IMG/VR virus record: IMGVR_UViG_2531839130_000007
Coordinates: 1 to 45,691 of that record
Length of the DNA stretch: 45,691 nt
Direction: 5' to 3' (one strand)
Origin: a virus
Taxonomy: Duplodnaviria > Heunggongvirae > Uroviricota > Caudoviricetes
In this document: positions 6,849 through 21,576 of the stretch, in pieces
Position numbering within the stretch: the first letter of the stretch is position 1
How the letters are laid out: every line of letters starts with the position of its first letter
Notes under the pieces: generated by a model
What the model was told of the DNA's origin: nothing
What the model saw: only the letters and a program-made list of their open reading frames with translations
The model's database searches: none
Program-made: the position numbers and the translations under genes

Positions 6849-7063
6849 GACTCCGCCTTTACAGGTAAACCATCACGACCGAGGAAGACTTTAATCATGC
6901 GGTCAGTAATGCATGTTTTTGTGGTCAGGTTACGAATATAAAGTTTTCGCTTTTTAATATTGTTTGCCGAGGCAATATATGTCCGGCCTTCATGAAGAAC
7001 ATAATCGCCAGGAGTCACACACTGACGTGGTATTTCATCAGTTCCAAAGTGATGAGCAATCAT
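6842..7063 (-). CDS. kilR: KilR-like small early protein
   Basis: Internal ATG at 7063 with GGAG 6 nt upstream gives 73 aa ([15 protein letters not shown]...), matching KilR length and its position upstream of ydaE in Rac. Confidence 0.45.
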
Positions 7064-7483
7064 AATTATCTCCATTTTTACAAATGAACTTTGTCGATGC
7101 GGTGCCTGGTGCCTCCAGGTGACTGTAACCAGTTAACAATTACAGTCGGCTTTCCCACCCAAACCAATAAGGACTAACATGACTTTTAACTGTGCCGCGT
7201 GCGCTTAGCCGCATTCACCGCATCACAAAATTCACTTTAAAAAGGGCGGACATCAGCCGAACTTCAAGAAAAAAACTGATGCCGCTAGGATACACACAGC
7301 AATGTCGTTATTTACAACCGGAGGCGCACTCCCACCATTTAAATTTAACAGACAAGACCGACTCTTTATGGATATCGGAAATGCGCCTTCGTGTTGTGCC
7401 CAGTTTTATTTCACCACCTCCGGGCTTTGGTGGTTTCTGCTATACCCCTACAGCGAGAATATTGAATTAATCTAAATAATGGA

Positions 7484-7636
7484 TTAGCAAGTATTTCTGG
7501 CAAGCCAGCGACGTGCGCCCGTTTCAGTTTTGAATGTCTTGCTTTTGGCATAAGTCATGGCGGTGAACGTTCCATCCTGGTTGGGGAACACGCCACATAC
7601 CAGAGATTCGTTGTTGCCAAGATCGATAGTATCCAT
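7484..7636 (-). CDS. ydaF: YdaF-like small protein (not in the ORF track)
   Basis: 50 aa found by hand: MDTIDLGNNESLVCGVFPNQDGTFTAMTYAKSKTFKTETGARRWLARNTC; GAGGT Shine-Dalgarno upstream; first gene after the leftward promoter. Confidence 0.45.
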   Translation of the reverse strand: MDTIDLGNNESLVCGVFPNQDGTFTAMTYAKSKTFKTETGARRWLARNTC

Positions 7637-7707
7637 GTTGACCTCATTTCCCCTTAACGCCGGGTGGCGGAACTAAAACCTACAGCGCCGTGCTGTTCTT
7701 GATATAA

Positions 7708-7736
7708 ATATTAGTAACACGGATATTTTAAGTCAA
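7708..7736 (-). promoter_or_regulatory. Leftward early promoter (PL-like), sigma70-type
   Basis: Minus strand reads TTGACT - 17 nt - TAATAT, about 65 nt upstream of the ydaF-like start and downstream of the repressor terminator. Confidence 0.45.
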
Positions 7737-7833
7737 CAGTATGGCGTATGATATTTTTGATTTAGTAATTAAGTAAATGTTTTTTCAAGGGAAAAATATT
7801 AGTTATACAGCTGATTTGCAGAAGTTATGGCAC

Positions 7834-7864
7834 AAAAAAACCGACTAAGAAGTCGGTTTTTTTG
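7834..7864. terminator. Bidirectional intrinsic terminator after the repressor gene
   Basis: A-run, stem ccgact/agtcgg with loop aaga, then T-run; reads as a terminator on both strands. Confidence 0.7.
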
Positions 7865-7890
7865 TTGTGGATGGGGGTAGTGAGCGGTGG

Positions 7891-8352
7891 CTACTGGTTG
7901 CGTTTCTTTAGTGCCAGCATGTTCTCGAAAGCTTCCTCGTAGAGCTTGTTTAGTCCACGTAGCTGGTTAAGGAGTTTGGCTTTTTCTGACGCAGGTAGAA
8001 TCTCGAAGAGGTTAAGTAACTCTGCCTGTTCTTCATTGACCAGCCTCCATCCTTTGCCTGAAAAGCTATCATCATAAGTATCTGATGATCTTACATAATT
8101 CATTAAGTCTTTAAGGTCTTCTCGAATGTCCTCTGGTTTTACCTTTAACAGAGCCGCAAATTTTAGCGCAGCGTCGGTATTTACCGGTATCTTGCCGTTC
8201 AGATACTGACTAACGGTGCCTTGAGATTCGAATCCCAACAACTCAGCCGCCAGCTCTTGAGTCAGCTTCAGCTCTTTTTTTCTTGCATTCCATGCGGCTT
8301 TTAAATTCTTGCTCGCTTCTGGAGTTGCAATCACTTCGCGTGTTTTTTTCAT
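7891..8352 (-). CDS. Prophage repressor, XRE-family HTH (RacR-like)
   Basis: 153 aa with N-terminal HTH (LTQELAAELLGFESQGTVSQYLNGK); divergent from a Cro-like gene across a 100-bp intergenic region. Confidence 0.7.
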   Translation of the reverse strand: MKKTREVIATPEASKNLKAAWNARKKELKLTQELAAELLGFESQGTVSQYLNGKIPVNTDAALKFAALLKVKPEDIREDLKDLMNYVRSSDTYDDSFSGKGWRLVNEEQAELLNLFEILPASEKAKLLNQLRGLNKLYEEAFENMLALKKRNQ

Positions 8353-8453
8353 ACATAGAGTTTATTTGTTTTACCAATATTATCAAAGATAGTCTGACTA
8401 TTGATCTTTAAAATTAGTGGAGCTAATATTTGCTCGAAGCATAACGTAGAAGG

Positions 8454-8735
8454 TTGGCTATGAACTTAAGAGACTATTTAAAAGAGAAACATATCACCCA
8501 GCTACAGTTTGGGAAGCTAACGGGTTTATCTCAGGTGCATGTAAGTCGAGTGCTGGGGGGCCATGAAAGATTCAGCCCTGAAAAAGCATTACGTGTTGCT
8601 GAAGTAACGAATTTCGAGGTTACACCTCATGAACTCCGTCCTGATATCTACCCGAATCCGACCGATGGTTTACCTGTTGGATGTAAGGCTAACACACAAA
8701 ATGCACAGGAGTTGATTCATGAAAATCAGGCATGA
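8454..8735 (+). CDS. ydaS: Cro-like HTH regulator (YdaS-like)
   Basis: 93 aa, HTH ITQLQFGKLTGLSQVHVSRVLGG; divergent from the repressor and immediately upstream of the YdaT-like gene. Confidence 0.6.
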   Translation: MAMNLRDYLKEKHITQLQFGKLTGLSQVHVSRVLGGHERFSPEKALRVAEVTNFEVTPHELRPDIYPNPTDGLPVGCKANTQNAQELIHENQA

Positions 8736-9141
8736 GCACATTGAATCAGTGCTGTTAGCCCTGGCCGCTGAAAAAGGGCAGGCATGGGTAGCCAATGCAA
8801 TTACTGAAGAATATCTGCGCCAGGGGGGCGGCGAATTGCCCCTGGTACCAGGCAAGGACTGGAACAATCAGCAGAATATCTATCACCGTTGGTTGAAAGG
8901 TGAAACGAAAGCGCAAAGGGAAAAAATTCAGAAACTGATCCCTGCGGTTTTGGCAATTCTTCCGCGCGAGCTGCGTCACCGACTCTGCATCTTCGATACC
9001 CTGGAACGCCGTGCATTACTGGCGGCGCAGGAAGCGTTGAGTACGGCAATTGATGCGCATGATGATGCAGTCCAGGCCGTTTACCGGAAAGCACATTTCA
9101 GCGGCGGCGGTTCGTCCGGCGATTCTGTTGTTGTTCATTAA
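8719..9141 (+). CDS. ydaT: YdaT-like protein (CII-position regulator or toxin-like)
   Basis: 140 aa, MKIRHEHIESVLLALAAEKGQAWVANAITEEYLRQGGGELPLVPGKDW... matches remembered Rac YdaT in length and sequence. Confidence 0.6.
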   Translation: MKIRHEHIESVLLALAAEKGQAWVANAITEEYLRQGGGELPLVPGKDWNNQQNIYHRWLKGETKAQREKIQKLIPAVLAILPRELRHRLCIFDTLERRALLAAQEALSTAIDAHDDAVQAVYRKAHFSGGGSSGDSVVVH

Positions 9142-9160
9142 GTGAATAGGGTAACTAACA

Positions 9161-9574
9161 ATGAAAATCAAACCGTTTATCAATGCTGGAAATCTTACTC
9201 CCGGCGAACTACGAGACTGGCTCCTGAAACTTGCAAAAAATGCAGAAATTGCGGGTTGGGGTACAGAAACTTCGGTTCGGAAGCTTCAGAGCGCAGAACT
9301 TAGCCTGCGCTCAGTTATGGACGATTTATCTCCAAGAATTAATTTTCTGGGGTCAGAGCAAATAATTCGTTCGGAAGATCACTCCAGCGAAGTTGCGGAA
9401 GTTCTGAATACTCTGAGGATAACTTTTGCTGCCGTTCGCGATATTCAACGAACCATTCTCTCATTGATTTCTCAGCTTCAAGAAATTGATAGTCGCATTC
9501 CTGACGGGGGTCATAGAGAGCGTCTTCCAGAATGTGAAGAGCAAGGACAGGGGAAACAGATAAGGGATCAGTAA
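9161..9574 (+). CDS. Hypothetical early protein
   Basis: 137 aa on the rightward early strand; weak Shine-Dalgarno; overlaps an antisense ORF (9339..9794) that has a strong SD, so the true gene is ambiguous. Confidence 0.4.
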   Translation: MKIKPFINAGNLTPGELRDWLLKLAKNAEIAGWGTETSVRKLQSAELSLRSVMDDLSPRINFLGSEQIIRSEDHSSEVAEVLNTLRITFAAVRDIQRTILSLISQLQEIDSRIPDGGHRERLPECEEQGQGKQIRDQ

Positions 9575-9873
9575 TACGTTTTTCACTTGCCTGGTATAGC
9601 AATCTCGCCAGCGAATCATAGCTACTGGGGCTCAGGAGAGAATCCCGTGAGTGATTTGTAAGAATCAGGTGGAAGCGGGTGAGAACTATAGCCCTGCATG
9701 TTACCAGGTTAACCATGTCGTGGTCGTGCTGGTTAATTTTGTACACAGTGCGCATGTGATTTTTAATTTTTTGGCAAACAGCCATTAAAGACATGTCGAA
9801 CCTCCTTTGGTTCTGTTGATTGGGGAATCACAGATTATATCCGGAGGAAGGTTCGACACCAGATGAGGCAATT

Positions 9874-10998
9874 ATGGTTAAGGCTAAAAACATGCCAAAT
9901 CCCATGCCAAAAACTAAGGCAAACAATGAGCCTTATCGCAAGGTAAAAATAACGATATGGGATGATCCCAAATTTAGGGCGTTATCTCCTCTGCCTCCAA
10001 GTGGACAGAGTTTGTTTATTTATCTGCTGACCAGTCCATTTACCGGGATTATTCCTGGGTTGTTTAAAGCCGGGCGGGCAGCAATGGCCGAAGAGTTGGG
10101 GTGGGATATCGAAGCCTTTGACTTAGCCTTAGGAGAAGCCATGAATCTTGGCATGGTGAAAGCAGATATCAAAGCCAGAGTTTTTTGGCTCCCGAATGCT
10201 GCGAAACACAATCCGCCAAACTCGATAAATGTCATTAAATCCTGGGCAAAGGCATTCGCTTTAATTCCTGATTGTCCTCTCAAATGGGAGGCCAGGGAAT
10301 CGCTGAGAGCCGCATCCTACGGGGTTTCTGAGGCTTTGGGGATGGCATTCGATAAGGCAATCCCTTTGCCTGAGGATAAGCCTAAGGATAAGGCTAACGC
10401 TTTGTCATGCGGTATCCAGATAACAGATAACAGATATATAAACCCCACACATAACGCGCGCGTGCGCGAGAGTGCTCCTGCCAGTGAGGCAAATGGCGTG
10501 CCGTTGCAAACAGCGGAACCTGATTACCTGGAAGGCCTGAGCGAACCCATCGGGAAATTTCCGATGACCGATGGCTGGCATCCGTCGCCGGATTTTCGAC
10601 GACGGGCTGCGCTGTGGGGCGTGGCTCTTCCTGAGCCGGAATTTACACCAGCTGAACTTGCCGCCTTCCGGGACTACTGGGCAGCGGAGGGTAAAGTTTT
10701 CACGCAGGTTCAGTGGGAGCAGAAATTCGCCCGTCACGTAAATCACGTCAGGGCGCAGGCTAAACCAGTCAGCAAGGGGGTAAAACATGCAGCAGCACCA
10801 GGTGGCACCGCATCACGGGCAGTTCAGGAAATTCGGGCAGCACGTGAGCAGTGGGAACGTGAAAACGGATTTATCAGCGACGGAAACGGCCTGGAAGCTG
10901 TGGGAACTCATGGGGGAGGTTTATTCGAACCGCTGGACCCAGAAGAACGGGGCCGCACCTTCGAAGCTCTGGATTGCACAGATTGGCGCGATGACTGA
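9874..10998 (+). CDS. Replication initiation / primosomal protein (O-position; DnaT-like C-terminal region)
   Basis: Start moved to ATG 9874 (GAGG upstream). Position after the immunity genes and before a P-like gene; C-terminal block resembles DnaT-type domains. Confidence 0.55.
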
Positions 10999-11452
10999 GC
11001 AGCAAATCCGACAGGTCTGCCGCCAGTGCATGGACCGCTGCCGGGCGGGTGAAACATGGCCTCCGGACCTGGCTGAGTTTGTGGCACTGATTTCGGAGAG
11101 TGGGGCAAATCCATTTGGTCTGACGGTGGATGCTGTGATGGAGGAGTACCGCCGCTGGCGCAATGAGTCCTGGCGATACGACGGAAGCGATAAATACCCA
11201 TGGACTCAGCCTGTGCTGTATCACATTTGCCTCGAGATGCGTTCAAAGGGGATTGAGCGCCAGATGACCGAAGGGGAATTAAAACAGCTTGCAGAACGGC
11301 AGCTGACGAAATGGGCAAAGCATGTTAGTAACGGCCTGAGCGTTCCGCCAGTCCGGCGACAACTGGCGGCACCCAAACGCCCGTCGGGGCCAACGCCAAT
11401 TGAGTTACTGAAACAGGAATATGAACGCCGGAAAGCGGCTGGGTTTGTTTGA
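10787..11452 (+). CDS. Replication protein P-like (helicase loader); start uncertain
   Basis: C-terminal half resembles remembered lambda P (...[22 protein letters not shown]...LSVPPV versus lambda ...ESYPWKSNAHYWLVTNLYQNM...IPEPV). Candidate starts 10787, 10910 or 10991; overlaps the upstream gene. Confidence 0.55.
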
Positions 11453-11486
11453 GTTGAGAAGTAATTTTTACCGGGAGGAAATTTTA

Positions 11487-12239
11487 ATGGAGACCGTTTT
11501 TGACGCACTGAAAGCGATGGGAAAAGCTACGTCGGTAGAACTGGCTGCGCGACTTGATATCAGTCGTGAAGAAGTGCTGAACGAACTATGGGAACTGAAA
11601 AAGGCTGGTTTCGTTGATAAAAGCGCGTACACCTGGCGTGTGGCTGATAACAACGTTCAGCAGGAACAGCCAGCGCCAGAAGAACAGCCGGAAGAAACCT
11701 CCACGGCGACAGTAGCGAAAATCTCAGAGTGCGATTTAACCGCGACGATTGAACAACGCGGACCACAAACGGCTGATGAGCTGGCTACATTGTTTGGTAC
11801 CACATCACGCAAAGTGGCTTCAACGCTGGCAATGGCAATCAGCAAAGGCCGTCTGATTCGTGCTAATCAGGACGGTAAATTTCGTTACTGTATGCCGGGC
11901 GATAATTTACCAGCAGAGCCGAAAGCAGCATCGGTAGCGGAAACTGATGGTAAAGCCTTTCCTCAGCCTGCATGCGTTGCGTTACCAGTACAGGAAGCTG
12001 CAACACAGGAAGATATTAAAACAGAGACTGTGGCGGACATTGTGCAGTCGCTGCCATCGTTTACTGAAACGAGAGCGGATGACCTGGTTTTACCATCGCT
12101 GCATATGGCAAACCGCGAACTGCGTCGGGCGAAAAATCATGTCCAGAAGTGGGAGCGAGTCTGCGCCGCGCTGCGGGAGCTGAACAAGCACCGGGATATT
12201 CTTCGGGATATTACCGCGAACGGAGAGCTGCAGCGGTGA
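11487..12239 (+). CDS. Hypothetical protein with N-terminal winged-helix-like region
   Basis: Start at ATG 11487 (GGGAGG upstream): [43 protein letters not shown]. Confidence 0.55.
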
Positions 12240-12553
12240 GTGGCTGGAAGAAGTGGTACGAGGCTGAAATCATGATACTCCGGCAGTGTGCGGGAACGAT
12301 GACGGTCGAAAGCATTGGGAGGCTGACCGGTCGTACAGGTGATGCTGTCAGAACGAAAGCGCGGGAACTGGGTGTCAGCCTGATGTTACGGGGTGATTAT
12401 CACCAGTCAACAAAATATCCGCAGAGTGATATTGAACTGGCGCGACAGCTGCATCAGCGTGGCGTACCCAGGAGAGAAATCGCCAGAAAATTTGGAATGC
12501 CGTTGCGCACAGTGAATAACTACGTTTATTTCGACAGGAGAGTTCAGGAGTGA
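12236..12553 (+). CDS. Hypothetical DNA-binding protein (two HTH-like segments)
   Basis: GTG start overlapping the upstream stop (GTGA); segments [22 protein letters not shown] and [15 protein letters not shown]. Confidence 0.45.
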
Positions 12554-12957
12554 GGGTGAGAGTTTATATTGCCGGTCCAATGACCGGGTATAAAAATTTC
12601 AACCGTGAGGCGTTCCACAATGCGGAAGAGGAACTGAAACGGGAAGGGCATACCGTCTTAAACCCGGCAGTACTTCCTGACGGGCTGACACAGCCGCAGT
12701 ACATGGATATCTGCATGGCAATGATACGCAGCGTGGATGCGATTTATATGCTGAAAGACTGGCAACGGTCAGCAGGCGCTAAGGCGGAACTGGCGCTGGC
12801 GGAGAAGCTAGGGCATGTGGTTGTTTTTCAGAGGGGAGGGGGCGATATGCCGATTCTCTGGTTTCAGGAGGTGTGGGAAGGTCTTGTGATTGTAGCCGAA
12901 ACAGTTCTTTTATTATGGTCTGTGATTGCGTGTGTTTTTATGATTTATTGTGAATGA
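12550..12957 (+). CDS. DUF4406-like (nucleoside 2-deoxyribosyltransferase-like fold) protein with hydrophobic C-terminal extension
   Basis: N-terminus [13 protein letters not shown]...VLNP...DW.RS.GAKAELALAEKLG resembles the family as remembered; the last ~40 aa are strongly hydrophobic. Confidence 0.5.
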   Translation: MRVRVYIAGPMTGYKNFNREAFHNAEEELKREGHTVLNPAVLPDGLTQPQYMDICMAMIRSVDAIYMLKDWQRSAGAKAELALAEKLGHVVVFQRGGGDMPILWFQEVWEGLVIVAETVLLLWSVIACVFMIYCE

Positions 12958-13061
12958 TGTGAATCTCGCTGTGGCCACTGAATTGCAACCATTACCCCCC
13001 TGTGATGTAATTGTGGGGTAATGGTTGCGCAGGCATAGCGACAGGACTGGATGAGAAAAAT

Positions 13062-13484
13062 ATGACGAAATTTACCAGAGAGCAATTGATTGCTCATGCT
13101 AATGAAAGTGTGAAATCCATGAAATTTGCTGCGCGACAGACCGCGTTTAAGACTTCAAAAGTTGCCATTGAAATGGATCTTGCGCTTGCCCGTATTGCGC
13201 TTGCCTCACTTGAAGCAATGCCAGTTGCATGGTCCTGTGCTCACAATATGGTTTTGTTCAATGCTGAATCTGTCGCGGCATACGCAAAACACTCAGCCAT
13301 TGCGCCAAAACCCCTGTACGCTGCGCAACCGGCATCACTTTCACATGAGGAAGAGTTGACAATGCTGGTTAAACAATTGGTAAGTCAGTTGAAAAAAGCG
13401 AAACCAGATTGCAAATTACCGGATATGGCGATGGAGTATCTGGAGCGGAATGGGCTGATAAGCGCGGAGGATGTTTTACGATGA
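13062..13484 (+). CDS. Hypothetical nin-region protein
   Basis: ORF track entry trimmed to the first ATG (MTKFTREQLIAH...); 140 aa. Confidence 0.5.
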   Translation: MTKFTREQLIAHANESVKSMKFAARQTAFKTSKVAIEMDLALARIALASLEAMPVAWSCAHNMVLFNAESVAAYAKHSAIAPKPLYAAQPASLSHEEELTMLVKQLVSQLKKAKPDCKLPDMAMEYLERNGLISAEDVLR

Positions 13485-13775
13485 CCTGGCCGGAGGCATT
13501 CACAACGACAGGAATTGCAATGGCGTCGGCACTTGTTGTGTATTCGGTTTGCAGATGGGGATAAAAACGGTTTGCGGGGAAATCTTAGTTAAGTAGAATG
13601 ACTGCGGGTGCTTGAGGCTATCTGTCTCAGGCATGAACACCAAAAGGCAGATAGAGAAAAGCCCCAGTTAACATTACGCGTCCTGCAAGACGCTTAACAT
13701 TAATCTGAGGCCCAATCTATGTCTCACAAATGTAGGTTAGCCTCTTACGTGCCGAAAGGCAAGGAGAAGCAGGCT

Positions 13776-13931
13776 ATGAAGCAGCAAAAGGCGATGTTAA
13801 TCGCCCTTATCGTCATCTGTTTAACCGTCATAGTGACGGCACTGGTAACGAGGAAAGACCTCTGCGAGGTACGAATCCGAACCGGCCAGACGGAGGTCGC
13901 TGTCTTCACAGCTTACGAACCTGAGGAGTAA
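13776..13931 (+). CDS. hokD: Hok/Gef-family type I toxin (HokD/RelF-like)
   Basis: MKQQKAMLIALIVICLTVIVTALVTRKDLCEVRIRTGQTEVAVFTAYEPEE: single TM helix plus conserved Cys and RTG...VAAF-like tail; AGGAGAAG Shine-Dalgarno; structured leader and terminator. Confidence 0.85.
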   Translation: MKQQKAMLIALIVICLTVIVTALVTRKDLCEVRIRTGQTEVAVFTAYEPEE

Positions 13932-13999
13932 GAGACCAGGCGAGGGAGAAATCCCTCGCCACCTCTCATGTGTCAGGCATCCTCAACGCACCCGCACTA

Positions 14000-14022
14000 A
14001 ACCCGCTTCGGCGGGTTTTTTG
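14000..14022. terminator. Intrinsic terminator at the 3' end of the hok transcript
   Basis: Stem acccgc/gcgggt with loop ttcg, followed by a T-run; a second hairpin (ggcgaggga/tccctcgcc) lies at about 13941-13962. Confidence 0.75.
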
Positions 14023-14211
14023 TTGTTTATTTTCAGTGAGCATGATGCATCTGGTTGTACTGATGTGGCTGGCTGATTCTGTTATTCAGGTGGCTTATTG
14101 CTGTTGATCGGTATGTCTTCACGGCTAGAATCGAGGCTCTTAAGTAGCGCGCAGGGAGAAGAGGGATGGACCCCGAAGGGGAAGAGCTATTTATCTGGAA
14201 GGATTCTGAAG

Positions 14212-14385
14212 ATGAAAATCGAAGAATTGCGTGAAATTTTTAGTGAAAATGGCCTCTATGCTGTGCGCGTTGAGAATGGGAAAGTTGTCTACACAACGTT
14301 AATCCCTGGTGATCATGTAATTTTATCTATCGAGGCATTCATTGAATACCTTGAAAGGCTCGGTTTCAAGGTGGTTCGCGAATGA
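14212..14385 (+). CDS. Small hypothetical protein
   Basis: 57 aa from ATG 14212 (GGAAGGA upstream): MKIEELREIFSENGLYAVRVENGKVVYTTLIPGDHVILSIEAFIEYLERLGFKVVRE. Confidence 0.45.
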   Translation: MKIEELREIFSENGLYAVRVENGKVVYTTLIPGDHVILSIEAFIEYLERLGFKVVRE

Positions 14386-14432
14386 GTTATAATTCGTAAG
14401 CCAGCCTGAACAACTGGCAACCTACAGCGCCA

Positions 14433-15044
14433 TTGGAGACAGCAATGGCGCATATACAACTGGTCAAACAAACCTCTTCTGGATTACTTCTCCCGGCGAC
14501 GCCGGAGAGTTGCGATTTTTTGCATCAAATCAAAATAGGTGAGTGGATACACGCGGACTTTAAGCGAGTGCGTAACTACGCGTTCCACAAGCGTTTTTTC
14601 AAACTCCTGCAACTGGGATTCGATTACTGGACTCCGGTCGGTGGGGCGATCACGCCTCGAGAACGAGAACTGGTGTCCGGTTTCGTTGAGTATCTGTGCG
14701 AATCAGTTGGTCGGGAACACACTCCAGCCCTGAGTGATGCCACAGAGCAATACCTTAATACAGTTGCGACATGCAGAACCCGGGATACGGCATTGCTAAA
14801 GTCGTTTGACGCTTTCCGCGAGTGGGTAACCATTCAGGCCGGATTTTACACCGAGCATATTTATCCTGATGGTAGTCGTGGGCCCAGGGCAAAATCTATC
14901 GCATTTGCGAACATGGACGAAACCGAGTTTCAGCAGGTTTATAAATCTGTACTGAATGTGCTGTGGAACTGGATCCTGTTCCGTAAATTTTCCTCTCCGG
15001 AGGAAGTCGAAAATGTGGCCGCGCAGTTACTGGAGTTTGCGTAA
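14433..15044 (+). CDS. Hypothetical nin-region protein
   Basis: 203 aa; stop overlaps the next start (TAATG). Confidence 0.55.
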   Translation: METAMAHIQLVKQTSSGLLLPATPESCDFLHQIKIGEWIHADFKRVRNYAFHKRFFKLLQLGFDYWTPVGGAITPRERELVSGFVEYLCESVGREHTPALSDATEQYLNTVATCRTRDTALLKSFDAFREWVTIQAGFYTEHIYPDGSRGPRAKSIAFANMDETEFQQVYKSVLNVLWNWILFRKFSSPEEVENVAAQLLEFA

Positions 15045-15334
15045 TGGTGGATTTACGTAAAGCGGCGCGGGGGCAGATGTGCACCGTCAGAATTCCTGGC
15101 TACTGCAATCACAATCCCGAAACTTCTGTGCTGGCGCATTACAGGCTGGCGGGGACGTGTGGAACAGCGACAAAACCACACGATATGCAGGGGGCAATTG
15201 CCTGTAGCTCATGCCACGATTTAATCGACGGGCGGGTAAAAACCAGCGATTACACCAAAGAAGAATTGCGCCTGATGCATGCAGAAGGTGTTTTTCGCAC
15301 ACAAGAAATCTGGAGAAAGGAAGGTTATTTATGA
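15044..15334 (+). CDS. Small Cys/His-rich protein (YbcO/DUF1364-like putative nuclease)
   Basis: 96 aa with CxxxxxxxC...HxxxxxC...CxxCH pattern; sits just upstream of the presumed late regulator. Confidence 0.45.
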   Translation: MVDLRKAARGQMCTVRIPGYCNHNPETSVLAHYRLAGTCGTATKPHDMQGAIACSSCHDLIDGRVKTSDYTKEELRLMHAEGVFRTQEIWRKEGYL

Positions 15335-15873
15335 TTTACCCAACAAATACAGGAAAAAGCGGGGAACACCTTCGTCTCACCACGCTGGAAAGAGTCTGGA
15401 TTCAGGGAAAACTGCGCATGTGGGGGCGCTGGTCGTATATTGGCGGCGGTAAGATGGGAAATATGTTCAACCAGTTGCTGACCTCTAAAAAGCTGACAAA
15501 AACGGCAATTAACGAGGCGCTCCGGAGGATGAAAAAAGCAGGTCTGGACAAACCTGAACTTGAGGCTTTTTTGCGGGATATGATCAACGGTAAGCAAAAA
15601 AGCTGGCTGGTGCATTGTAATGATGCAGAGGCGTTATGCATTGATCGTGTGATTAGTGAAGTACTGGCAGAACACCCAGGATTGATTTTTATCCTCCGAC
15701 AAAGATATGAAGGGCGGGGGATGAGTAAGCTGAAAATGGCACAACAGTTAAATAAGTATCGCCCTGGCTGGAGCTTGAAAACTTGCAGAAATCGCATTGA
15801 TGCATGGTTGGGTGTTGCTGAACACATTCTGTATATACCAATGAAATTAGCGTTATGCGGAGAAAGCCAATAA
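15331..15873 (+). CDS. Putative late-gene antiterminator (Q-position protein)
   Basis: 180 aa from ATG 15331 (AGGAAGG upstream). Assigned by position only (last gene before promoter-like region, tRNAs and lysis cassette); no recognisable Q zinc-finger. Confidence 0.35.
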   Translation: MIYPTNTGKSGEHLRLTTLERVWIQGKLRMWGRWSYIGGGKMGNMFNQLLTSKKLTKTAINEALRRMKKAGLDKPELEAFLRDMINGKQKSWLVHCNDAEALCIDRVISEVLAEHPGLIFILRQRYEGRGMSKLKMAQQLNKYRPGWSLKTCRNRIDAWLGVAEHILYIPMKLALCGESQ

Positions 15874-15968
15874 AAAAGTTATTGCATTTTTGCCAATAAA
15901 CTGCTTCAATTTTGCTACGCTTCGCAAAGCTGTATCGCGAGGCGAATCAAGCGCATGAACTTTACCAG

Positions 15969-15997
15969 AACCCGCCATTGAGCGGGTTTTGTTGTTT
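15969..15997. terminator. Intrinsic terminator downstream of the Q-position gene
   Basis: Stem cccgc/gcggg with loop cattga, then ttttgttgttt. Confidence 0.55.
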
Positions 15998-16129
15998 CTA
16001 TGGTGTGATATAAGAAACGACATTTAATAATTGCCTTCAAAATAAATTTGTTTATATATTGTTGTGTATGTTTTAAGTGAAAGTTAAATGTTTGCATAAA
16101 ATAAAAACACATAAATAAATTTACATAAC

Positions 16130-16165
16130 TTGACGTAAAGTGTTGTTGCGATTGGAATATTAAAT
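16130..16165 (+). promoter_or_regulatory. Candidate late promoter (PR'-like) in AT-rich region
   Basis: TTGACG at 16130-16135 followed by AT-rich -10-like hexamers (gaatat/taaat) at plausible spacing; assignment is weak. Confidence 0.25.
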
Positions 16166-16243
16166 CGTATCATCGAAAACGGTTCTGAGGGGGGGGGAGG
16201 AACTCTTCTTTGCTCGGTGATATCGCTCCCCTGAAGAACCAAT

Positions 16244-16319
<76 letters not shown>

Positions 16320-16322
16320 TAT

Positions 16323-16397
<75 letters not shown>

Positions 16398-16763
16398 GCA
16401 TTTGAAACAAGCCTTATTGTATTGCGGCACTGGCGTATTTTTTATTACGTGGGGGCAGGTTGTTTTGAAAAAGCATTCTGTTCTCTGGCTATGATTTGAG
16501 GCCAGGTGTAGCCTCAGTGCTGATTTTTTTACGACAGCAGAATGGTGCATTATCGGTGGAGATTTTGTATTTCCTGGCAGGGTAGGTGATGCATCATTCT
16601 GGTGTTGTAAATCGCACCAAAGAGGCGCACCTCAGTGCGAGGGTGGTTTAAAGAGTCGGTTTAGCGGGAAACCACAGTATCCATACAGCACGGAATACTT
16701 CGGGAGACACCCGACGCCTCGGTTTAATAACAATTAAAAAAAATCATCCCTTGCATTGACCAA

Positions 16764-16788
16764 CCGCCATATCTGGCGGTTTTTTTTA
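16764..16788. terminator. Intrinsic terminator in the tRNA-to-lysis intergenic region
   Basis: Stem ccgcca/tggcgg with loop tatc, then T8. Confidence 0.6.
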
Positions 16789-17114
16789 TTCCTTTCTCAG
16801 GACGAAAAAAGACACGAGCATCCAGGAATACTCGTGGGACAACGTCCTTTGGATAGCAATTTGCGAGAGGGTGAAAAGTAGCGCGGTCGTCGGATTAAGA
16901 CCGCGGGACAAAGTCCATGAAGAATAATAAGTATTGGCCCCCTTCCGGGGACATGTTCATACTACCAAGATTCAGAAGTGGTTTAAATCCTCAAATTAAC
17001 CTTAATTTCCGATAAGTCTTATTTCATTTCTTTGCGCCACATCTGGAGCTCATCAAATAACGCCACGCAAAGGGCGTCTGCGGATGCCGGTGCTTTTGAC
17101 GGGGTGTTTTTTAC

Positions 17115-17137
17115 GGGCCGCTGGTGGCCCTTTTTTT
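17115..17137. terminator. Intrinsic terminator immediately upstream of the lysis cassette
   Basis: Stem gggcc/ggccc with loop gctggt, then T7; 20 nt before the holin-like start. Confidence 0.6.
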
Positions 17138-17156
17138 ATTTACAGGAGAAAAAAGT

Positions 17157-17549
17157 ATGTCTGAACCCTTATCCGGTTCCGGCACGGCTGCGGCGCTCGG
17201 CGGGGCGACGGTGTACGGGCTGTTTACCGGGACGGATTTCGGGATTGTGTTTGGTGCGTTCGCCGGGGCGTTATTTGTGGCAACGATGCCGCAGGCGCTT
17301 TCAGCCTGGCGTGTGGCGGCGCATTTTCTGGTGTCGTTCATTATCGGCGTGCTGGGGGCAGAGGTTCTGGCGTCCTGGCTGGTAAAGCATACAGGGTTTG
17401 ACGGTGCACCTGTCGACGCACTGTGTGCAGTGCTGGTGTCAGTGGTGTCGGTGAAGATTCTGTCGTTCATCCACCAGCAGGATATTGCATCACTGGTGTC
17501 CGGTGTGTTCTCCCGCCTGCGGGGCGGAGGAGGCGGCAATGTTAAGTAA
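17157..17549 (+). CDS. Putative holin (multi-pass small membrane protein)
   Basis: Start at ATG 17157 (AGGAGAAAAAAGT upstream); ~130 aa with 3-4 hydrophobic helices; first gene of the lysis cassette. Confidence 0.45.
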   Translation: MSEPLSGSGTAAALGGATVYGLFTGTDFGIVFGAFAGALFVATMPQALSAWRVAAHFLVSFIIGVLGAEVLASWLVKHTGFDGAPVDALCAVLVSVVSVKILSFIHQQDIASLVSGVFSRLRGGGGGNVK

Positions 17550-17814
17550 CCTTCCCGGATTGCTGAATGTGGCGTTATGCACGGTTATCGTGCTGACGCT
17601 CTTTTTTTATCGTCGTCGTGACTCCAGACACAAACCGCTGATGTCATGGCTGGCCTGGCTGCTGATGCTGCTGTATGCCTTTACGCCCCTCAGCTATCTG
17701 TGTGGTCGCCCGTTAGCGGCGAACTGGCTGGCGGTGGGGCTTAATCTGCTGTTCTGCGTGCTGGTGATACGTGCACGCGGGAACGTTTCAAAAATCCTTT
17801 CATTCCGGAGGTGA
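17539..17814 (+). CDS. Second small membrane protein of the lysis cassette (antiholin or accessory)
   Basis: Start at ATG 17539 (GGAGG upstream), overlapping the holin stop; 91 aa with two hydrophobic segments. Confidence 0.4.
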   Translation: MLSNLPGLLNVALCTVIVLTLFFYRRRDSRHKPLMSWLAWLLMLLYAFTPLSYLCGRPLAANWLAVGLNLLFCVLVIRARGNVSKILSFRR

Positions 17815-17816
17815 GC

Positions 17817-18194
17817 ATGTCGGGTAAATTCAGATTCAGTCGTCGCAGTGAAAAAAATCTGGGGGGCGTCAAACCACAGCTGGTTGCTGTCGTTCGCCGT
17901 GCCCTTGAGCTGACGGAGGTTGATTTCGGTATTACGGAAGGCCTGCGCAGCAAGTATCGCCAGAAACAGCTGGTTGCAGAAGGTAAGAGCCAGACCATGA
18001 ACAGCCGCCACCTGACCGGTGATGCGGTGGATGTTGTGGCCTACGTTGGCAGCCAGGTGTCATGGGACTGGCCTCTGTACGAGAAAATCGCACAGGCATT
18101 TAAGCAGGCTGCCGCAGAGCTGGGAGTCGCCATCGAATGGGGCGGGGACTGGAAAACGCTGAAGGACGGGCCGCACTTCCAATTGAAACGCTGA
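17817..18194 (+). CDS. Endolysin, peptidase M15 family (zinc L-alanyl-D-glutamate peptidase type)
   Basis: Motifs SRHLTGDAVD, WGGDW and DGPHFQL fit the M15 H-x6-D...H zinc site; ATG 17817 with GGAGG upstream. Confidence 0.7.
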   Translation: MSGKFRFSRRSEKNLGGVKPQLVAVVRRALELTEVDFGITEGLRSKYRQKQLVAEGKSQTMNSRHLTGDAVDVVAYVGSQVSWDWPLYEKIAQAFKQAAAELGVAIEWGGDWKTLKDGPHFQLKR

Positions 18195-18208
18195 TAGCCG
18201 GGTGAGTT

Positions 18209-18391
18209 ATGAGTCGAAAGCACTGGACACACAGAACGCCGCGAACTGCGGCGAAATGGGCACTGGTAGCGATACTGGTGCCTTTTTTATTGGTGGGATG
18301 CGTCAGCCTGGATAAGGCGCGCCAGCTTTTCGATACGGCTTCTCAGGTCTGTGAAATTGTCGACGGTGTTCGGCAGTGCCTGCAGAACTGA
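18209..18391 (+). CDS. Small lipoprotein (outer-membrane spanin-like lysis component?)
   Basis: 60 aa with lipobox-like FLLVGC after a hydrophobic stretch; directly follows the endolysin. Confidence 0.4.
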   Translation: MSRKHWTHRTPRTAAKWALVAILVPFLLVGCVSLDKARQLFDTASQVCEIVDGVRQCLQN

Positions 18392-18517
18392 TCTCCTGTA
18401 AGGGCAGAATATTTCGCTGAAAAATGAAAGGGCGCCATTGTCCAAGAGGCATGAAATTCTGTTATCTAATCTGGTTGATATATGAATGTGGGGGATGCTC
18501 TTCTCCCCCACTGAAGG

Positions 18518-18730
18518 TTAGCCTACCTTACGGTATGGATACACATTTTTAATGAATTGGTGAAAATACTGGCCTTTTGAACTGGCATTCATAAGACCCT
18601 GATAGATCCTGGATGGAACACCAGAGTATTGATAGATACCTCCATTGTGAAAGGCTATTTCCAGTGTGAGAGTTGCTGAATCATACCCAACTGACTGGAG
18701 ATTTGATGATGAAACATAATTACGAATCAA
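18518..18730 (-). CDS. KTSC-domain protein
   Basis: 70 aa with pattern SSNLQSVGYD...LEIAFHNGGIYQYSGVP..YQGL..ASSKGQYF..IK typical of KTSC domains; TTG start with GAGGA upstream. Confidence 0.5.
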   Translation of the reverse strand: MIRNYVSSSNLQSVGYDSATLTLEIAFHNGGIYQYSGVPSRIYQGLMNASSKGQYFHQFIKNVYPYRKVG

Positions 18731-18885
18731 AACAATATCCTCATATTGCGGGGAAAAGTCCCAATGAAATTATTGATATATTTCGGCGTTATAACTTTGT
18801 CGATGATCATGGTCATCGTCTTGAAATGTGCCAGGACTTCATTGACTTAGTTAATGCGAAATCACAACAACATCAGGATGGTTAG
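18706..18885 (+). CDS. Small hypothetical protein, divergent from and overlapping the KTSC gene start
   Basis: 59 aa from ATG 18706 (GGAG upstream); head-to-head overlap of 25 bp with the KTSC start, so one of the two starts may be wrong. Confidence 0.35.
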   Translation: MMKHNYESKQYPHIAGKSPNEIIDIFRRYNFVDDHGHRLEMCQDFIDLVNAKSQQHQDG

Positions 18886-19151
18886 GCATTACAGCAGCTC
18901 TTCTGTGAGGGGCTGCGATAATGCCAAAGCTCGTCATCGGCACCCGCCGCGCACCCAGCGCACTGGCCGATAGCGGGCTTTTTTATTCATAAAGCGAGGC
19001 TGTATGAGCGAGAAATTTTTATGCGTCCATCCGTAAGGGCAGAGCGAAAGGTGAAGCCGAGCTACGGGCGGCATTGTTTAAGCTTGCCAGAAAAGGGGAT
19101 GCCTTTGCCCTGCGCGAACTACTCAGGGTGGATAAAAATCAGGACTAACTG

Positions 19152-20243
19152 ATGAGCAGACCGGACTGGGGGGCGTTGCAGCAGGAGTATATTGCTGAAT
19201 ACACCCGCTCCGGTATATCTCCGGTGGCATGGTGTGAAGCAAGGGGACTGAATTACGCAACGGCCCGTCGTTACATCAAAAAACCTCCGAAAAATGCGCA
19301 GACAGAAATGCGCAAAACTGCGCAAAAAAGTGCGCAGAAAAAATCTGCGCAGACTGCGCAAAAGCAGAACGGAAAATCTCAGAAAAAAAAGCCAGTATCC
19401 GATGCGTGCCTGAATAAGGGCGACACGGAGGAATTTTCGTTCTGTCCCGATGAATTCGGCATCTCAGAGCAGCAGACGAAATTTGCGATGCTGGTTGCAC
19501 AGGGGAGAAAACTCGTTGAGGCATATCGCCTGGCAGGATACGAGTCAGAGGGGAATGCGGCCTACGTCACTGCCAGCCAGCTCCTAAGAAATCCTAAGGT
19601 TTATCGGGCTATCTCATGGTTCCGCAATCAGTACCAGAAACGCTATACCGCAGACCTAGATTTACTGGTGAGTCAGTTGATGGCCATTGTCCAGGCCGAC
19701 CCCAATCAGTTGGCACAATTTCGCCGTGTTAACTGCCGTTATTGCTGGGGCGAGAATCATCTCTACCAGTGGCGTGATATTGCAGAATTCGATAAGGCAG
19801 CAGCACAGGCCTCCAGAGATGGCAAACCCGAGCCGGAATATGGAGGCCTCGGCTTTGTTGATAACGCCATACCCAATCCGGATTGTCCGAAGTGCTGCGG
19901 TGAGGGAACGGGACAGCTTTATATGGCTGATACCACTCTGCTTGATGGGGATGCGCGACAATTATATGCAGGGGCAAAGCTCGGGAAATTTGGTGTTGAG
20001 ATCCTGCTGGAGGATAAGGCTGCCGCCCGGCGCGAACTTATCAAGCTGATAATGGCGACGAAAGGAGGTTCTGCTAGTGGTGCAACTGACAGTCGCAATG
20101 ATCTGGAGCTTGAAGGACTGAGGCTTCGCAACGAAAAGCTGCGCACTGAGATTGAAAACCTCAAAAAAGGCGTGGGTGGTGAGAATAACGAAATAATTAT
20201 CCACAACTCTCTGCCGATGCCGGGAGTGGATAATGTCGATTGA
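19152..20243 (+). CDS. Terminase small subunit
   Basis: 363 aa immediately upstream of and overlapping the large subunit; HTH-like N-terminus; contains a basic low-complexity stretch encoded by a TGCGCA repeat array. Confidence 0.65.
   Translation: MSRPDWGALQQEYIAEYTRSGISPVAWCEARGLNYATARRYIKKPPKNAQTEMRKTAQKSAQKKSAQTAQKQNGKSQKKKPVSDACLNKGDTEEFSFCPDEFGISEQQTKFAMLVAQGRKLVEAYRLAGYESEGNAAYVTASQLLRNPKVYRAISWFRNQYQKRYTADLDLLVSQLMAIVQADPNQLAQFRRVNCRYCWGENHLYQWRDIAEFDKAAAQASRDGKPEPEYGGLGFVDNAIPNPDCPKCCGEGTGQLYMADTTLLDGDARQLYAGAKLGKFGVEILLEDKAAARRELIKLIMATKGGSASGATDSRNDLELEGLRLRNEKLRTEIENLKKGVGGENNEIIIHNSLPMPGVDNVD
19295..19360. repeat. Array of six TGCGCA hexamers at 9-15 bp spacing inside the terminase small-subunit gene
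   Basis: TGCGCA at 19295, 19309, 19319, 19331, 19346 and 19355; the hexamer is its own reverse complement. Confidence 0.8.
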
Positions 20244-21561
20244 AATCTACCTCCCAAAACCTCATGAGGGGCAAATAGCTGCATGGACGGCGGCAATAGA
20301 GGAACGCTTCCACGCGGTATGCTGTGGTCGTCGCTGGGGTAAAACGGTGATGCTGGTGAACATCGCTACCAGTTTCGCTACGCGGAAATTTGCCGTTCCT
20401 ACCACCGGGCAACTTATCGCGGGTAGGGTGGGGATTTTTACCGCTCAATACCGCCAGTACCAGGAAATCTGGGATGAAATTAGCGCCGTTCTGCAACCGC
20501 TGATCCTCAGTCAGTCAAAAAATGAAAAGCGCATCATTCTCCGTAATGGGGGGCGCATCGACTTTTGGGTAACGGACAATAACAAACTGGCCGGGCGTGG
20601 GCGTAAATATCACGCTGTGCTGATTGATGAGGCCGCATTCACTAAATCGCCGGAAATGCTCGAGGAAATCTGGCCCCGAGCGATACGCCCGACGCTTGTC
20701 GATTACCGCGGCTGTGCGTGGGTATTTTCCACACCAAACGGTATCGACGAGAGCAATTTTTTCTACGCGATATGCCACGATGAATCCCTGGGATTTGTCA
20801 TGCACCATGCGCCAACTTCATCGAATCCGTATATTCCGAAAGAAGAACTGGAGGAAACGGAGAAAAAATCCGATCCGCGCGTCTGGCAGCAGGAATATCT
20901 TGCAGAGTTCGTAGACTGGTCCAAAGACGCGTTACTCGATGTCGATAAGCTGCTGGTGGACGGTCAACCAATTGAGATGCCGCCGTACTGCGACATGATT
21001 TTCGCAGTGATGGATACGGCGCTGAAAGGCGGGACCGAAAATGATGGTACTGGCGTGGTGTATTTCTCTTATGAGTCAACGTATTCGGACGAGCCAAAAC
21101 TGACGATTATTGACTGGGATGTGACGCAAATTAAAGCGTCATTGCTTCCTGAATATATCCCCGGCGTTTATGACAACCTCGAGCGCCTCGCGAAATTATG
21201 CCGTCCGCGTCTGGGCAGTCAGGGAATTTTTATGGAAGACGCCGCGATGGGGGCAATCCTCAACCAGAAGGCGGAAACCGAAGGCTGGGATATGACGCCG
21301 ATTAAATCGACACTAACCAGCAAGGGCAAAGACGAACGGGCGGTGATGGCATCCAGCTACCACTATCAGGGGATGTGCAAAATCGTCCGGGAGGCTTACG
21401 ACAAGACCGTTTCATTCAAACGTACCACCGCAAACCACCTCATTAAACAAATCGCCGGGTTCCACCTGGCAGACAAAGACGCGCATAAACGTGCTGATGA
21501 CCTTTTCGATTGTTATACCTATGGATTGATCATCGCACACGGTAATTACGCGGCGTTGTAA
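20233..21561 (+). CDS. Terminase large subunit
   Basis: 442 aa; Walker A-like CCGRRWGKT, Walker B-like HAVLIDEAA, nuclease-like C-terminal half. Confidence 0.85.
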   Translation: MSIEIYLPKPHEGQIAAWTAAIEERFHAVCCGRRWGKTVMLVNIATSFATRKFAVPTTGQLIAGRVGIFTAQYRQYQEIWDEISAVLQPLILSQSKNEKRIILRNGGRIDFWVTDNNKLAGRGRKYHAVLIDEAAFTKSPEMLEEIWPRAIRPTLVDYRGCAWVFSTPNGIDESNFFYAICHDESLGFVMHHAPTSSNPYIPKEELEETEKKSDPRVWQQEYLAEFVDWSKDALLDVDKLLVDGQPIEMPPYCDMIFAVMDTALKGGTENDGTGVVYFSYESTYSDEPKLTIIDWDVTQIKASLLPEYIPGVYDNLERLAKLCRPRLGSQGIFMEDAAMGAILNQKAETEGWDMTPIKSTLTSKGKDERAVMASSYHYQGMCKIVREAYDKTVSFKRTTANHLIKQIAGFHLADKDAHKRADDLFDCYTYGLIIAHGNYAAL

Positions 21562-21576
21562 AAAATCAGGATATTT

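What the first reader, a model, noticed from the sequence alone, without database searches (positions are those of the whole stretch)
13485..14022. Hok-family type I toxin locus embedded in the nin-like region
The 51-aa product is an unmistakable Hok/Gef-type membrane toxin, with a structured leader and a strong 3' terminator hairpin. The expected antisense RNA should lie on the minus strand over the leader (roughly 13650-13780), but I could not place its promoter by eye. A prophage-borne hok locus can act in prophage maintenance or abortive infection.
Basis: partly seen in the sequence, partly recalled or inferred. Interest (0 to 1): 0.35.

Follow-up and report, generated by a model that had tools for sequence, protein, structure and literature searches.

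The report
Intact hok/mok/sok toxin–antitoxin cassette
This is an ordinary, complete copy of the well-known hok/sok RNA-controlled toxin–antitoxin module, sitting in the early-gene region of a Rac-like E. coli prophage, and the antisense RNA and its promoter can now be placed exactly.

Summary
Window 13776..13931 (+) encodes a 51-aa Hok toxin (Pfam HOK_GEF, 82.9 bits). It is 100% identical to E. coli K-12 HokD/RelF. The leader 13606..13781 matches Rfam RF01794 over its full length (120 bits, E 6e-27).

Sok runs 13727→13657 on the minus strand. Its promoter is -35 TTGCCT (13762..13757), a 17-nt spacer, and -10 TAACCT (13739..13734). This stretch is base-for-base identical to the sokW promoter of phage 933W/Sp5, and mutating that -10 abolished antitoxin activity (PMC8621323).

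Every regulatory element tested here is present:
- an in-frame mok ORF (13719..13931);
- 5' tac (13606-13617) pairing with 3' fbi (13981-13993);
- ucb/dcb pairing, a Sok-target hairpin, and a terminator (13999-14018).

Across 39 related mRNAs, 87% of cells in the predicted pairs form standard base pairs, against 40-46% in slid controls.

K-12 hokD has lost its whole leader. This copy has not, so it is not a remnant. The cassette lies between replication genes and the Q antiterminator gene (a nin-type region). At least 2,930 complete E. coli genomes carry a match covering at least 80% of it. Verdict: already known, low interest.

The parts
13572..13599 (+). Putative hok/mok promoter: -35 TTGCGG (13572-13577), 16-nt spacer, -10 TAGAAT (13594-13599).
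   Evidence: Read from the sequence. The -10 lies 6 nt before GGGTGC. That is the same position as TAGAAT in 933W and pPE4 and TATAAT in K-12 hokC, and it is conserved in other loci. The consensus scan did not report it. Inferred, not shown.
13606..14022 (+). hok mRNA, about 417 nt. The 5' end is inferred from the conserved GGGUGCUUGAGG start. The 3' end is placed at the terminator T run.
   Evidence: Rfam RF01794 model position 1 aligns at 13606. MFE -173.1 kcal/mol, z -8.6. Structure conserved in 39 homologues.
13606..13617 (+). tac element (5' GGGUGCUUGAGG). It has three alternative partners: fbi (13981-13993), a local hairpin partner (13624-13634) and ucb (13659-13665).
   Evidence: Folds of full-length and 3'-shortened RNAs. 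The Rfam consensus contains the tac-ucb helix.
13661..13667 (+). ucb (GCCCCAG). In the full-length fold it pairs with dcb 13705-13711 (CUGAGGC), which contains the mok Shine-Dalgarno GAGG at 13707-13710.
   Evidence: structure. Helix 4 is 89.4% paired, with compensatory AU<->GC changes at three pairs.
13714..13738 (+). Sok-target hairpin: a 9-bp stem and a CUCACAA loop, containing the mok AUG at 13719-13721.
   Evidence: It corresponds to the central hairpin of the Rfam consensus. The single-stranded 5' tail of Sok is complementary to 13714-13727.
13719..13931 (+). mok: a 70-codon ORF in frame with hok, sharing its stop codon.
   Evidence: ORF list. The arrangement matches the annotated mokW/hokW of 933W and mokC/hokC of K-12.
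13657..13727 (-). Sok antisense RNA, about 71 nt: a 14-nt 5' tail (GUGAGACAUAGAUU), a long hairpin, then UUUUCUCU.
   Evidence: Coordinates transferred from the annotated sokW of 933W through alignment A1. They are consistent with the position of K-12 sokC relative to mokC. Fold -32.9 kcal/mol, z -4.25.
13734..13762 (-). Sok promoter: -35 TTGCCT (13762..13757), 17-nt spacer, -10 TAACCT (13739..13734). The -35 overlaps the hok Shine-Dalgarno on the other strand.
   Evidence: Identical to 933W across this stretch. The architecture is conserved across Escherichia, Kluyvera and Photorhabdus and absent from decayed loci. An R1-type plasmid locus has TTGCGC/TATCCT at the same place. The sokW -10 was mutated experimentally with loss of antitoxin activity (PMC8621323, primers YO-421/422).
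13776..13931 (+). hok toxin gene, 51 aa, with Shine-Dalgarno AAGGAG at 13761-13766.
   Evidence: Pfam HOK_GEF 82.9 bits. 100% identical to K-12 HokD and to proteins in E. coli, Shigella flexneri and E. albertii.
13914..13919 (+). UACGAA at the Tyr47 codon, matching the TadA A-to-I editing motif (Tyr to Cys recoding).
   Evidence: The motif is present at the equivalent Tyr codon in every scanned locus that includes that codon. Editing of hokB, hokC, hokD and hokE is reported in the introduction of bioRxiv 10.1101/2025.08.07.668861. Not tested for this copy.
13981..13993 (+). fbi (fold-back inhibition) element CCUCAACGCACCC, which pairs with tac.
   Evidence: The tac/fbi duplex is -21.5 kcal/mol. 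fbi lies 45-56 nt after the stop codon in related loci and covaries with tac (GGGUGC/GCACCC against GGGCGC/GCGCCC).
13999..14024 (+). Intrinsic terminator of the hok mRNA.
   Evidence: 8-pair stem with 5 G-C pairs, loop of 4, then a T run. Shared with pPE4 and K-12 Qin hokD but not with 933W.

Best explanation
This is a complete hok/mok/sok type I toxin-antitoxin cassette. It is the full-length form of the hokD (relF) locus, carried in the nin-type region of a Rac-like lambdoid prophage.

Proposed mechanism. The elements are shown in the sequence; the dynamics are inferred from the plasmid R1 paradigm.
1. A weak promoter (about 13572-13599) makes a stable mRNA of about 417 nt.
2. In the full-length form, the 5' tac element is locked to the 3' fbi element and ucb pairs with dcb. 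This occludes the mok Shine-Dalgarno sequence, so the mRNA is neither translated nor an efficient Sok target.
3. Slow 3' trimming removes fbi. tac can then pair with ucb, and the target hairpin carrying the mok start forms.
4. Sok (13727→13657, about 71 nt), made constitutively from TTGCCT-17-TAACCT, pairs with this region through its 14-nt 5' tail. That blocks mok translation, and therefore the coupled hok translation, and marks the duplex for RNase III.
5. When Sok synthesis stops, the stable mRNA pool is translated. The 51-aa Hok inserts into the inner membrane and kills or lyses the cell.

Biological role, inferred. The most likely role is the one found for hokW-sokW of Sp5: Sok is lost on prophage induction and Hok assists lysis and phage release. 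Prophage stabilisation and exclusion of other phages are alternative or additional roles.
For: Toxin:
- Pfam 82.9 bits.
- Identical to K-12 HokD. HokD served as a toxic positive control in bioRxiv 10.1101/2025.08.07.668861.

Leader:
- Rfam full-length match, 120 bits.

Long-range closure:
- 13606-13617 pairs with 13981-13993 in the MFE structure, z -8.6.
- In related loci tac/fbi duplexes are -18 to -26 kcal/mol and show covariation.
- Over 39 mRNAs, 87.0% of cells pair against 40-46% when partners are slid. 39 pairs carry two-sided changes against 11-19 in the slid controls.

Switch:
- With fbi present, forcing tac-ucb costs +12.4 kcal/mol.
- With fbi removed it costs only +0.3 to +4.3 kcal/mol, and the target hairpin forms.

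Sok:
- Position from the annotated sokW and sokC.
- Tail-plus-terminator-hairpin fold.
- Promoter identical to the experimentally disrupted sokW promoter and conserved across genera.

Context:
- Replication genes at 9820-11449, a NinB-like gene at 14433-15044 and a Q-like gene at 15211-15873, all on the + strand.
- Same gene order as hokD-rem-ydfU-ydfT(Q) in K-12 Qin.

Function of the closest studied relative: PMC8621323.
Against: - There are no expression data for this copy.
- Neither promoter passes the generic sigma-70 scan. The sok -10 TAACCT matches only 3 of 6 consensus positions.
- MFE folds of 3'-shortened RNAs usually prefer a local 5' hairpin to tac-ucb. The switch is therefore energetically permitted, not predicted outright.
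- Chromosomal hokA, hokB and hokC loci were reported unable to mediate post-segregational killing (summarised).
- Hok here has Tyr47 where a Cys is needed for the disulfide linked to toxicity in HokB. Full toxicity may therefore depend on TadA editing.
- In Sp5 the cassette sits near attR rather than in the nin region, so its role may not transfer.
- The NCBIfam Hok models score below their cut-offs (48.5 against 73).
Confidence: 0.92

Rival explanations
1. It is an inactive remnant. The toxin ORF survives, but regulation or expression has decayed, as in several chromosomal hok loci.
For: Decayed relatives do exist. K-12 hokD keeps only the stretch from 14 nt before the ATG to the terminator, with relBE in place of the leader. 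K-12-type hokC has lost fbi. L007, L028, L044 and L046 lack both tac and the sok promoter. Chromosomal loci were reported inactive for post-segregational killing. The promoters here are weak matches to consensus.
Against: Every element tested is present and in register: tac, fbi, ucb, dcb, target hairpin, the mok and hok Shine-Dalgarno sequences and start codons, the sok promoter and the sok terminator. The ORF is intact and identical to a toxic protein. The sok promoter is identical to a functional one.
Confidence: 0.05
2. It is an intact hok/sok whose main role is addiction, that is post-segregational killing. Cells that lose the prophage by excision or deletion lose short-lived Sok and are killed by stored hok mRNA, which stabilises the prophage.
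For: This is the classical R1 function and the function annotated for hokW in the 933W record ('prophage maintenance'). The stable-mRNA / unstable-antisense anatomy is present.
Against: Chromosomal single-copy hok loci tested so far did not mediate post-segregational killing. Deleting hokW-sokW had no growth effect, and the phenotype observed was at induction. Many E. coli carry several hok/sok copies (median 2 places per genome), and their Sok RNAs might cross-protect.
Confidence: 0.25
3. It is an intact hok/sok acting as abortive-infection defence. An infecting lytic phage shuts off host transcription, Sok decays, Hok kills the cell early and the phage burst is reduced.
For: R1 hok/sok on a high-copy plasmid reduced T4 plating by 42% and shrank plaques (cited). 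Prophages often carry defence genes. Hok is four-fold enriched in prophages.
Against: The effect was weak and needed a high copy number. [quoted passage not shown] The prophage homologue that was tested helped its own phage rather than blocking others.
Confidence: 0.15

Closest known systems
hokD (relF) of the E. coli K-12 cryptic prophage Qin
   Same: The Hok protein is 100% identical. DNA is 97% identical from 14 nt upstream of the ATG through fbi and the terminator. The neighbourhood is also the same: hok, then a rem-like gene, then further genes and Q antiterminator. PGAP names the close E. coli homologues hokD.
   Different: K-12 hokD has lost tac, ucb, dcb, the mok start, sok and the sok promoter, with relBE in their place. 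The window carries the complete regulatory leader.
hokW-mokW-sokW of Stx2 phage 933W / Sakai prophage 5
   Same: 89.5% nucleotide identity over 13485-13998. The layout of mok, hok and sok is the same. The sok promoter and most of the leader are identical. The same 27-aa ORF lies immediately upstream. [quoted passage not shown]
   Different: HokW differs at the C-terminus (VAVFVDYESEK against VAVFTAYEPEE). 933W lacks this terminator hairpin after fbi. In 933W the cassette lies near attR, downstream of int in the circularised genome, rather than in the nin region.
hok/sok (parB) of plasmid R1 and R1-type IncF plasmids
   Same: Same architecture and the same named elements. The 5' ends are GGCGCUUGAGGC and GGGUGCUUGAGGC. 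The sok promoter is in the same place (TTGCGC-17-TATCCT against TTGCCT-17-TAACCT), and fbi lies after the stop codon.
   Different: The plasmid Hok is strongly diverged. The hokW paper gives 44% identity between HokW and R1 Hok. The replicon differs, and in the R1 locus as I recall it mok is out of frame with hok, whereas here it is in frame.
hokC/mokC/sokC (gef) of E. coli K-12
   Same: In-frame mok, sokC overlapping the mok start by 9 nt, and the same 5' GGGUGCUUGAGGC. The protein is about 82% identical.
   Different: The K-12 copy has IS186 next to it and no fbi partner. It also lacks the 18-nt insertion in the ucb-dcb hairpin seen here.

Membership tests
[quoted passage not shown] | A toxin of about 50 aa with an N-terminal transmembrane helix and the conserved Hok/Gef C-terminal motif | tested here: met
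   Pfam HOK_GEF 82.9 bits against a cut-off of 22, covering residues 6-47 and the full profile.
[quoted passage not shown] | An overlapping mok reading frame that starts upstream of hok, inside the antisense target | tested here: met
   A 70-codon ORF at 13719..13931 with GAGG 8 nt upstream. The layout matches the annotated mokW and mokC.
[quoted passage not shown] | A cis-encoded antisense RNA of about 60-70 nt with its own promoter, complementary to the mok translation-initiation region | tested here: met
   The sequence-level test is met. The promoter TTGCCT-17-TAACCT is identical to the validated sokW promoter. The fold is a 5' tail plus a terminator hairpin (PMC8621323). Transcription itself cannot be tested with these tools.
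[quoted passage not shown] | Long-range 5'-3' pairing (tac-fbi) that closes the full-length mRNA | tested here: met
   13606-13617 pairs with 13981-13993. The pairing is conserved with covariation in 30 or more loci.
[quoted passage not shown] | Alternative leader pairings: ucb-dcb in the inactive form; tac-ucb plus the target hairpin in the active form | tested here: met
   ucb-dcb appears in the MFE structure. tac-ucb and the target hairpin are in the Rfam consensus alignment. Both become near-isoenergetic with the MFE once fbi is removed.
[quoted passage not shown] | Activation by 3' processing; unstable Sok against stable hok mRNA; RNase III cleavage of the duplex | not testable with these tools
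   This needs RNA half-life and processing experiments. It was partly shown for hokW-sokW (RNase III and Hfq dependence).
hokD as named by NCBI annotation | Protein identity with HokD/RelF | tested here: met
   100% identity to NP_416080.1, as translated from NC_000913.3. The generic NCBIfam Hok HMMs score below their cut-offs, so the name rests on identity, not on an HMM.

The most novel reading that the evidence does not exclude
The cassette may be wired into the phage's own early transcription. It is co-oriented with the delayed-early rightward operon. No terminator-like site lies between the replication genes and the hok leader, and a small upstream ORF is translationally coupled to the preceding gene. 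On induction, read-through RNA polymerase would therefore run head-on into the Sok promoter. That could silence Sok by transcriptional interference and at the same time supply extra hok-sense RNA. This would explain the unexplained RecA-dependent disappearance of SokW in Sp5, where the cassette lies downstream of int on the same strand once the genome circularises. Hok/sok would then act as an induction-triggered auxiliary lysis timer rather than an addiction module.
Probability: 0.25. Interest if true: 0.45.

Novelty: already known. Interest (0 to 1): 0.1.

Why it matters
It matters little beyond correct annotation. The analysis gives exact coordinates for Sok, its promoter, mok and the fold-back elements, none of which standard genome annotation reports; RefSeq lists only 'hokD' at homologous loci. 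This copy is the intact form of the truncated K-12 hokD locus. Such cassettes can affect lysis timing and phage yield on induction (PMC8621323). That is relevant for toxin-carrying lambdoid phages related to this one, such as Rac-SA53.

Tried and rejected
1. Generic promoter scan. It found neither the hok nor the sok promoter, because the sok -10 matches only 3 of 6 consensus positions. Both were placed by homology instead.

2. Thermodynamic folding of 3'-shortened mRNAs, to see the active conformation directly. Most lengths gave a local 5' hairpin rather than tac-ucb. Constrained folds showed that tac-ucb becomes competitive only after fbi is removed. I report this as 'permitted', not 'predicted'.

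3. The 27-aa ORF (13481..13564) as a fourth component of the hok cassette. Homology with 933W starts exactly at its ATG while the upstream genes are unrelated. I rejected the idea for three reasons:
- among the 53 genome loci the ORF was found immediately upstream of hok only in L023;
- in L005 and L010 its C-terminal part (MAVALVVYSICRWG) lies about 400 nt upstream of hok, not next to it;
- the same peptide occurs in phages at places that did not appear among the listed hok DNA hits, next to EaA, Ea22 and DUF551 genes.

4. NCBIfam naming. The Hok subfamily and HokA models score below their cut-offs, so they do not support a subfamily assignment. Identity to K-12 HokD does.

5. The remnant hypothesis. 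It was tested against truly decayed loci and rejected.

Full report
**What is in the sequence.** Window 13776..13931 (+) is a 51-codon ORF encoding MKQQKAMLIALIVICLTVIVTALVTRKDLCEVRIRTGQTEVAVFTAYEPEE. It matches Pfam PF01848 (Hok/gef) at 82.9 bits, E 1.2e-23, over the whole profile. An in-frame ATG at 13719 gives a 70-codon ORF that ends at the same stop codon. This is the same arrangement as the annotated mokW/hokW of phage 933W and mokC/hokC of K-12.

Rfam family RF01794 ('sok') matches 13606..13781 over all 157 model positions at 120.1 bits, E 6.2e-27. The match is on the plus strand and ends at the hok AUG. In practice, therefore, the model describes the hok mRNA leader, not the antisense RNA itself. 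A terminator hairpin with a T run lies at 13999..14018. The one correction is that 13485-13605 is not leader: it holds most of a separate 27-aa ORF and the putative hok promoter.

The locus is 89.5% identical to the hokW region of phage 933W, where mokW, hokW and sokW are annotated. Transferring sokW through alignment A1 puts Sok at 13727→13657 on the minus strand. K-12 sokC has the same relation to mokC, overlapping the mok start by 9 nt.

Upstream on the minus strand lie TTGCCT (13762..13757), a 17-nt spacer, and TAACCT (13739..13734). This stretch is identical in the window, 933W and pPE4. Takada et al. abolished sokW antitoxin activity by mutating exactly this -10. Their primers YO-421/422 replace TAGGTTA on the plus strand (PMC8621323). 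The same architecture (TTGCCT or TTGACC, 17 nt, TAACCT or TAATCT) is conserved in Escherichia, Kluyvera and Photorhabdus loci. An R1-type plasmid locus has TTGCGC/TATCCT at the same place.

The predicted Sok RNA has three parts: a 14-nt unpaired 5' tail, a long hairpin, and UUUUCUCU. It folds at -32.9 kcal/mol, z -4.25. The tail is complementary to 13714-13727, which is the 5' half and loop of a hairpin holding the mok AUG.

**The fold-back elements.**
- In the MFE structure of 13606..14026 (-173.1 kcal/mol; shuffles -124 +/- 5.7; z -8.6), the first 12 nt (GGGUGCUUGAGG) pair with 13981-13993 (CCUCAACGCACCC). This closes the whole mRNA.
- GCCCCAG (13661-13667) pairs with CUGAGGC (13705-13711), covering the mok Shine-Dalgarno sequence.
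- With fbi present, forcing the alternative tac-ucb helix costs +12.4 kcal/mol.
- With the 3' end shortened to 13980 or less, it costs only +0.3 to +4.3 kcal/mol, and the Sok-target hairpin of the Rfam consensus forms.
- Shortened RNAs also show a local 5' hairpin between 13606-13618 and 13624-13634. From memory, this resembles the metastable hairpin described for R1 hok mRNA.

**Comparative support.** A scan of one genome per species found 53 related loci in Escherichia, Shigella, Kluyvera, Photorhabdus, Pantoea, Citrobacter and Erwinia.
- In the intact loci, a tac motif lies 143-170 nt before the ATG (215-219 nt from the recorded match start in three loci whose match begins inside hok). A complementary fbi lies 45-56 nt after the stop codon, with duplex energies of -18 to -26 kcal/mol.
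- The two elements covary: GGGUGC/GCACCC against GGGCGC/GCGCCC, and GAGG/CCUC against GAGA/UCUC.
- On an alignment of 39 distinct mRNAs, the window's MFE structure forms standard pairs in 87.0% of cells, against 40-46% when partners are slid by 1-3 columns.
- 39 pairs show two-sided changes against 11-19 in the slid controls. None of 500 column shuffles reaches the observed values for percentage paired, two-sided changes or covariation score.
- The structure was derived from one member of the alignment, which inflates the paired percentage. It does not inflate the compensatory counts in the same way.

**It is not a remnant.** Decayed relatives provide the contrast. The window's Hok is 100% identical to K-12 HokD/RelF. 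However, homology with K-12 Qin starts only 14 nt before the ATG. In K-12 the whole leader, mok start, sok and sok promoter are replaced by relBE. K-12-type hokC lacks fbi, and L007, L028, L044 and L046 lack both tac and the sok promoter. The window has every element.

**Context.** Bases 4765-25000 resemble Rac-like lambdoid phages: Rac-SA53 at 93.4% and 'Actinobacillus phage pPE4' at 94.7%. All of the following are on the + strand:
- replication initiator and helicase-loader genes at 9820-11449;
- a NinB-like gene at 14433-15044;
- a Q-like antiterminator gene at 15211-15873;
- two tRNA genes at 16244-16397.

'Nin-like region' is therefore correct. The order hok, rem-like gene, further genes, Q matches K-12 Qin. 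The only + strand terminator-like site between the start of the replication genes and the hok terminator is a weak one at 10043-10058. Early rightward transcription should therefore read into the cassette in the sense direction.

**How common it is.** 4,938 of 5,426 complete E. coli genomes have a match, and 2,930 have one covering at least 80% of the query. PGAP annotates these as hokD. 79 phage records match. A recent survey found Hok in almost 80% of Enterobacteriaceae genomes and a four-fold enrichment in prophages.

**Function.** The regulatory mechanism is inferred from the R1 paradigm, as summarised and from my own knowledge of the work of Gerdes and colleagues. For the biological role, the best evidence comes from hokW-sokW. 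[quoted passage not shown] SokW disappears and HokW appears after mitomycin C in a RecA-dependent way, about 1 h before endolysin. Deleting the locus delays growth arrest by about 40 min and halves phage release.

Why SokW disappears is not known. Both cassettes are co-oriented with early phage transcription. In the window it lies in the rightward operon. In 933W it lies downstream of int on the same strand once the genome circularises. This suggests, but does not show, that read-through transcription interferes with the Sok promoter.

**Verdict.** This is a correctly identified, intact and very common hok/mok/sok cassette. It is already known and of low interest.

Noticed in passing
window 13481..13564 (+): A 27-aa hydrophobic ORF (MTWPEAFTTTGIAMASALVVYSVCRWG). 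Its ATG overlaps the TGA of the upstream 157-aa ORF (ATGA). Homology with 933W begins exactly at this ATG although the upstream genes are unrelated, and the changes look like coding-sequence changes (the Arg codon is AGA in one and CGC in the other). It is unannotated in 933W and in RefSeq E. coli. It is not specific to hok: the same peptide follows EaA, Ea22 and DUF551 genes in other phages.
   Followed up: partly
window 13914..13919 and 13870..13875 (+): UACGAA, resembling the tRNA-Arg anticodon loop that TadA recognises, sits at the Tyr47 codon of hok. It is present at the equivalent Tyr codon in every scanned locus that includes that codon. A second copy spans codons 32-33, where editing would be synonymous (GUA to GUG). 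Tyr to Cys editing is reported for hokB, hokC, hokD and hokE.
   Followed up: partly
window 150..4762 against 4765 onward: The right end of a Mu-like phage (tail fibre, invertase, Com/Mom; about 92% identity to Mu and SfMu) directly abuts the start of the Rac-like prophage homology (recE side). This suggests two prophages lying back to back, or a Mu insertion at the edge of the prophage.
   Followed up: no
PP818812.1 (L002) against window 4769..25000: 'Actinobacillus phage vB_Apl-pPE4' is 94.7% identical to this E. coli-type Rac-like prophage over 60% of 25 kb, including the hok cassette. The host given in that record looks doubtful. Likewise, short contigs labelled Xanthomonas pisi (L023) and Acinetobacter idrijaensis (L018) carry identical or near-identical E. 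coli-type hok and are probably contaminants.
   Followed up: no
window 37369..37452 (-): A full-length Rfam match to sRNA-Xcc1 (RF02221) at 78 bits, E 1e-12, in the late region of the prophage.
   Followed up: no
window 13999..14018 and 15966..15991 (+): The hok terminator is the first strong intrinsic terminator-like site on the + strand after the replication genes. It could therefore double as a nin-region terminator that the phage's antitermination system must override before Q is expressed. A second strong site follows the Q-like gene.
   Followed up: no
window 13606..13781 (+), Rfam RF01794: The Rfam family named 'sok antitoxin' matches the sense strand of the hok leader up to the hok AUG, not the antisense strand. 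Annotation pipelines that use it would place 'sok' on the wrong strand and with the wrong extent.
   Followed up: yes
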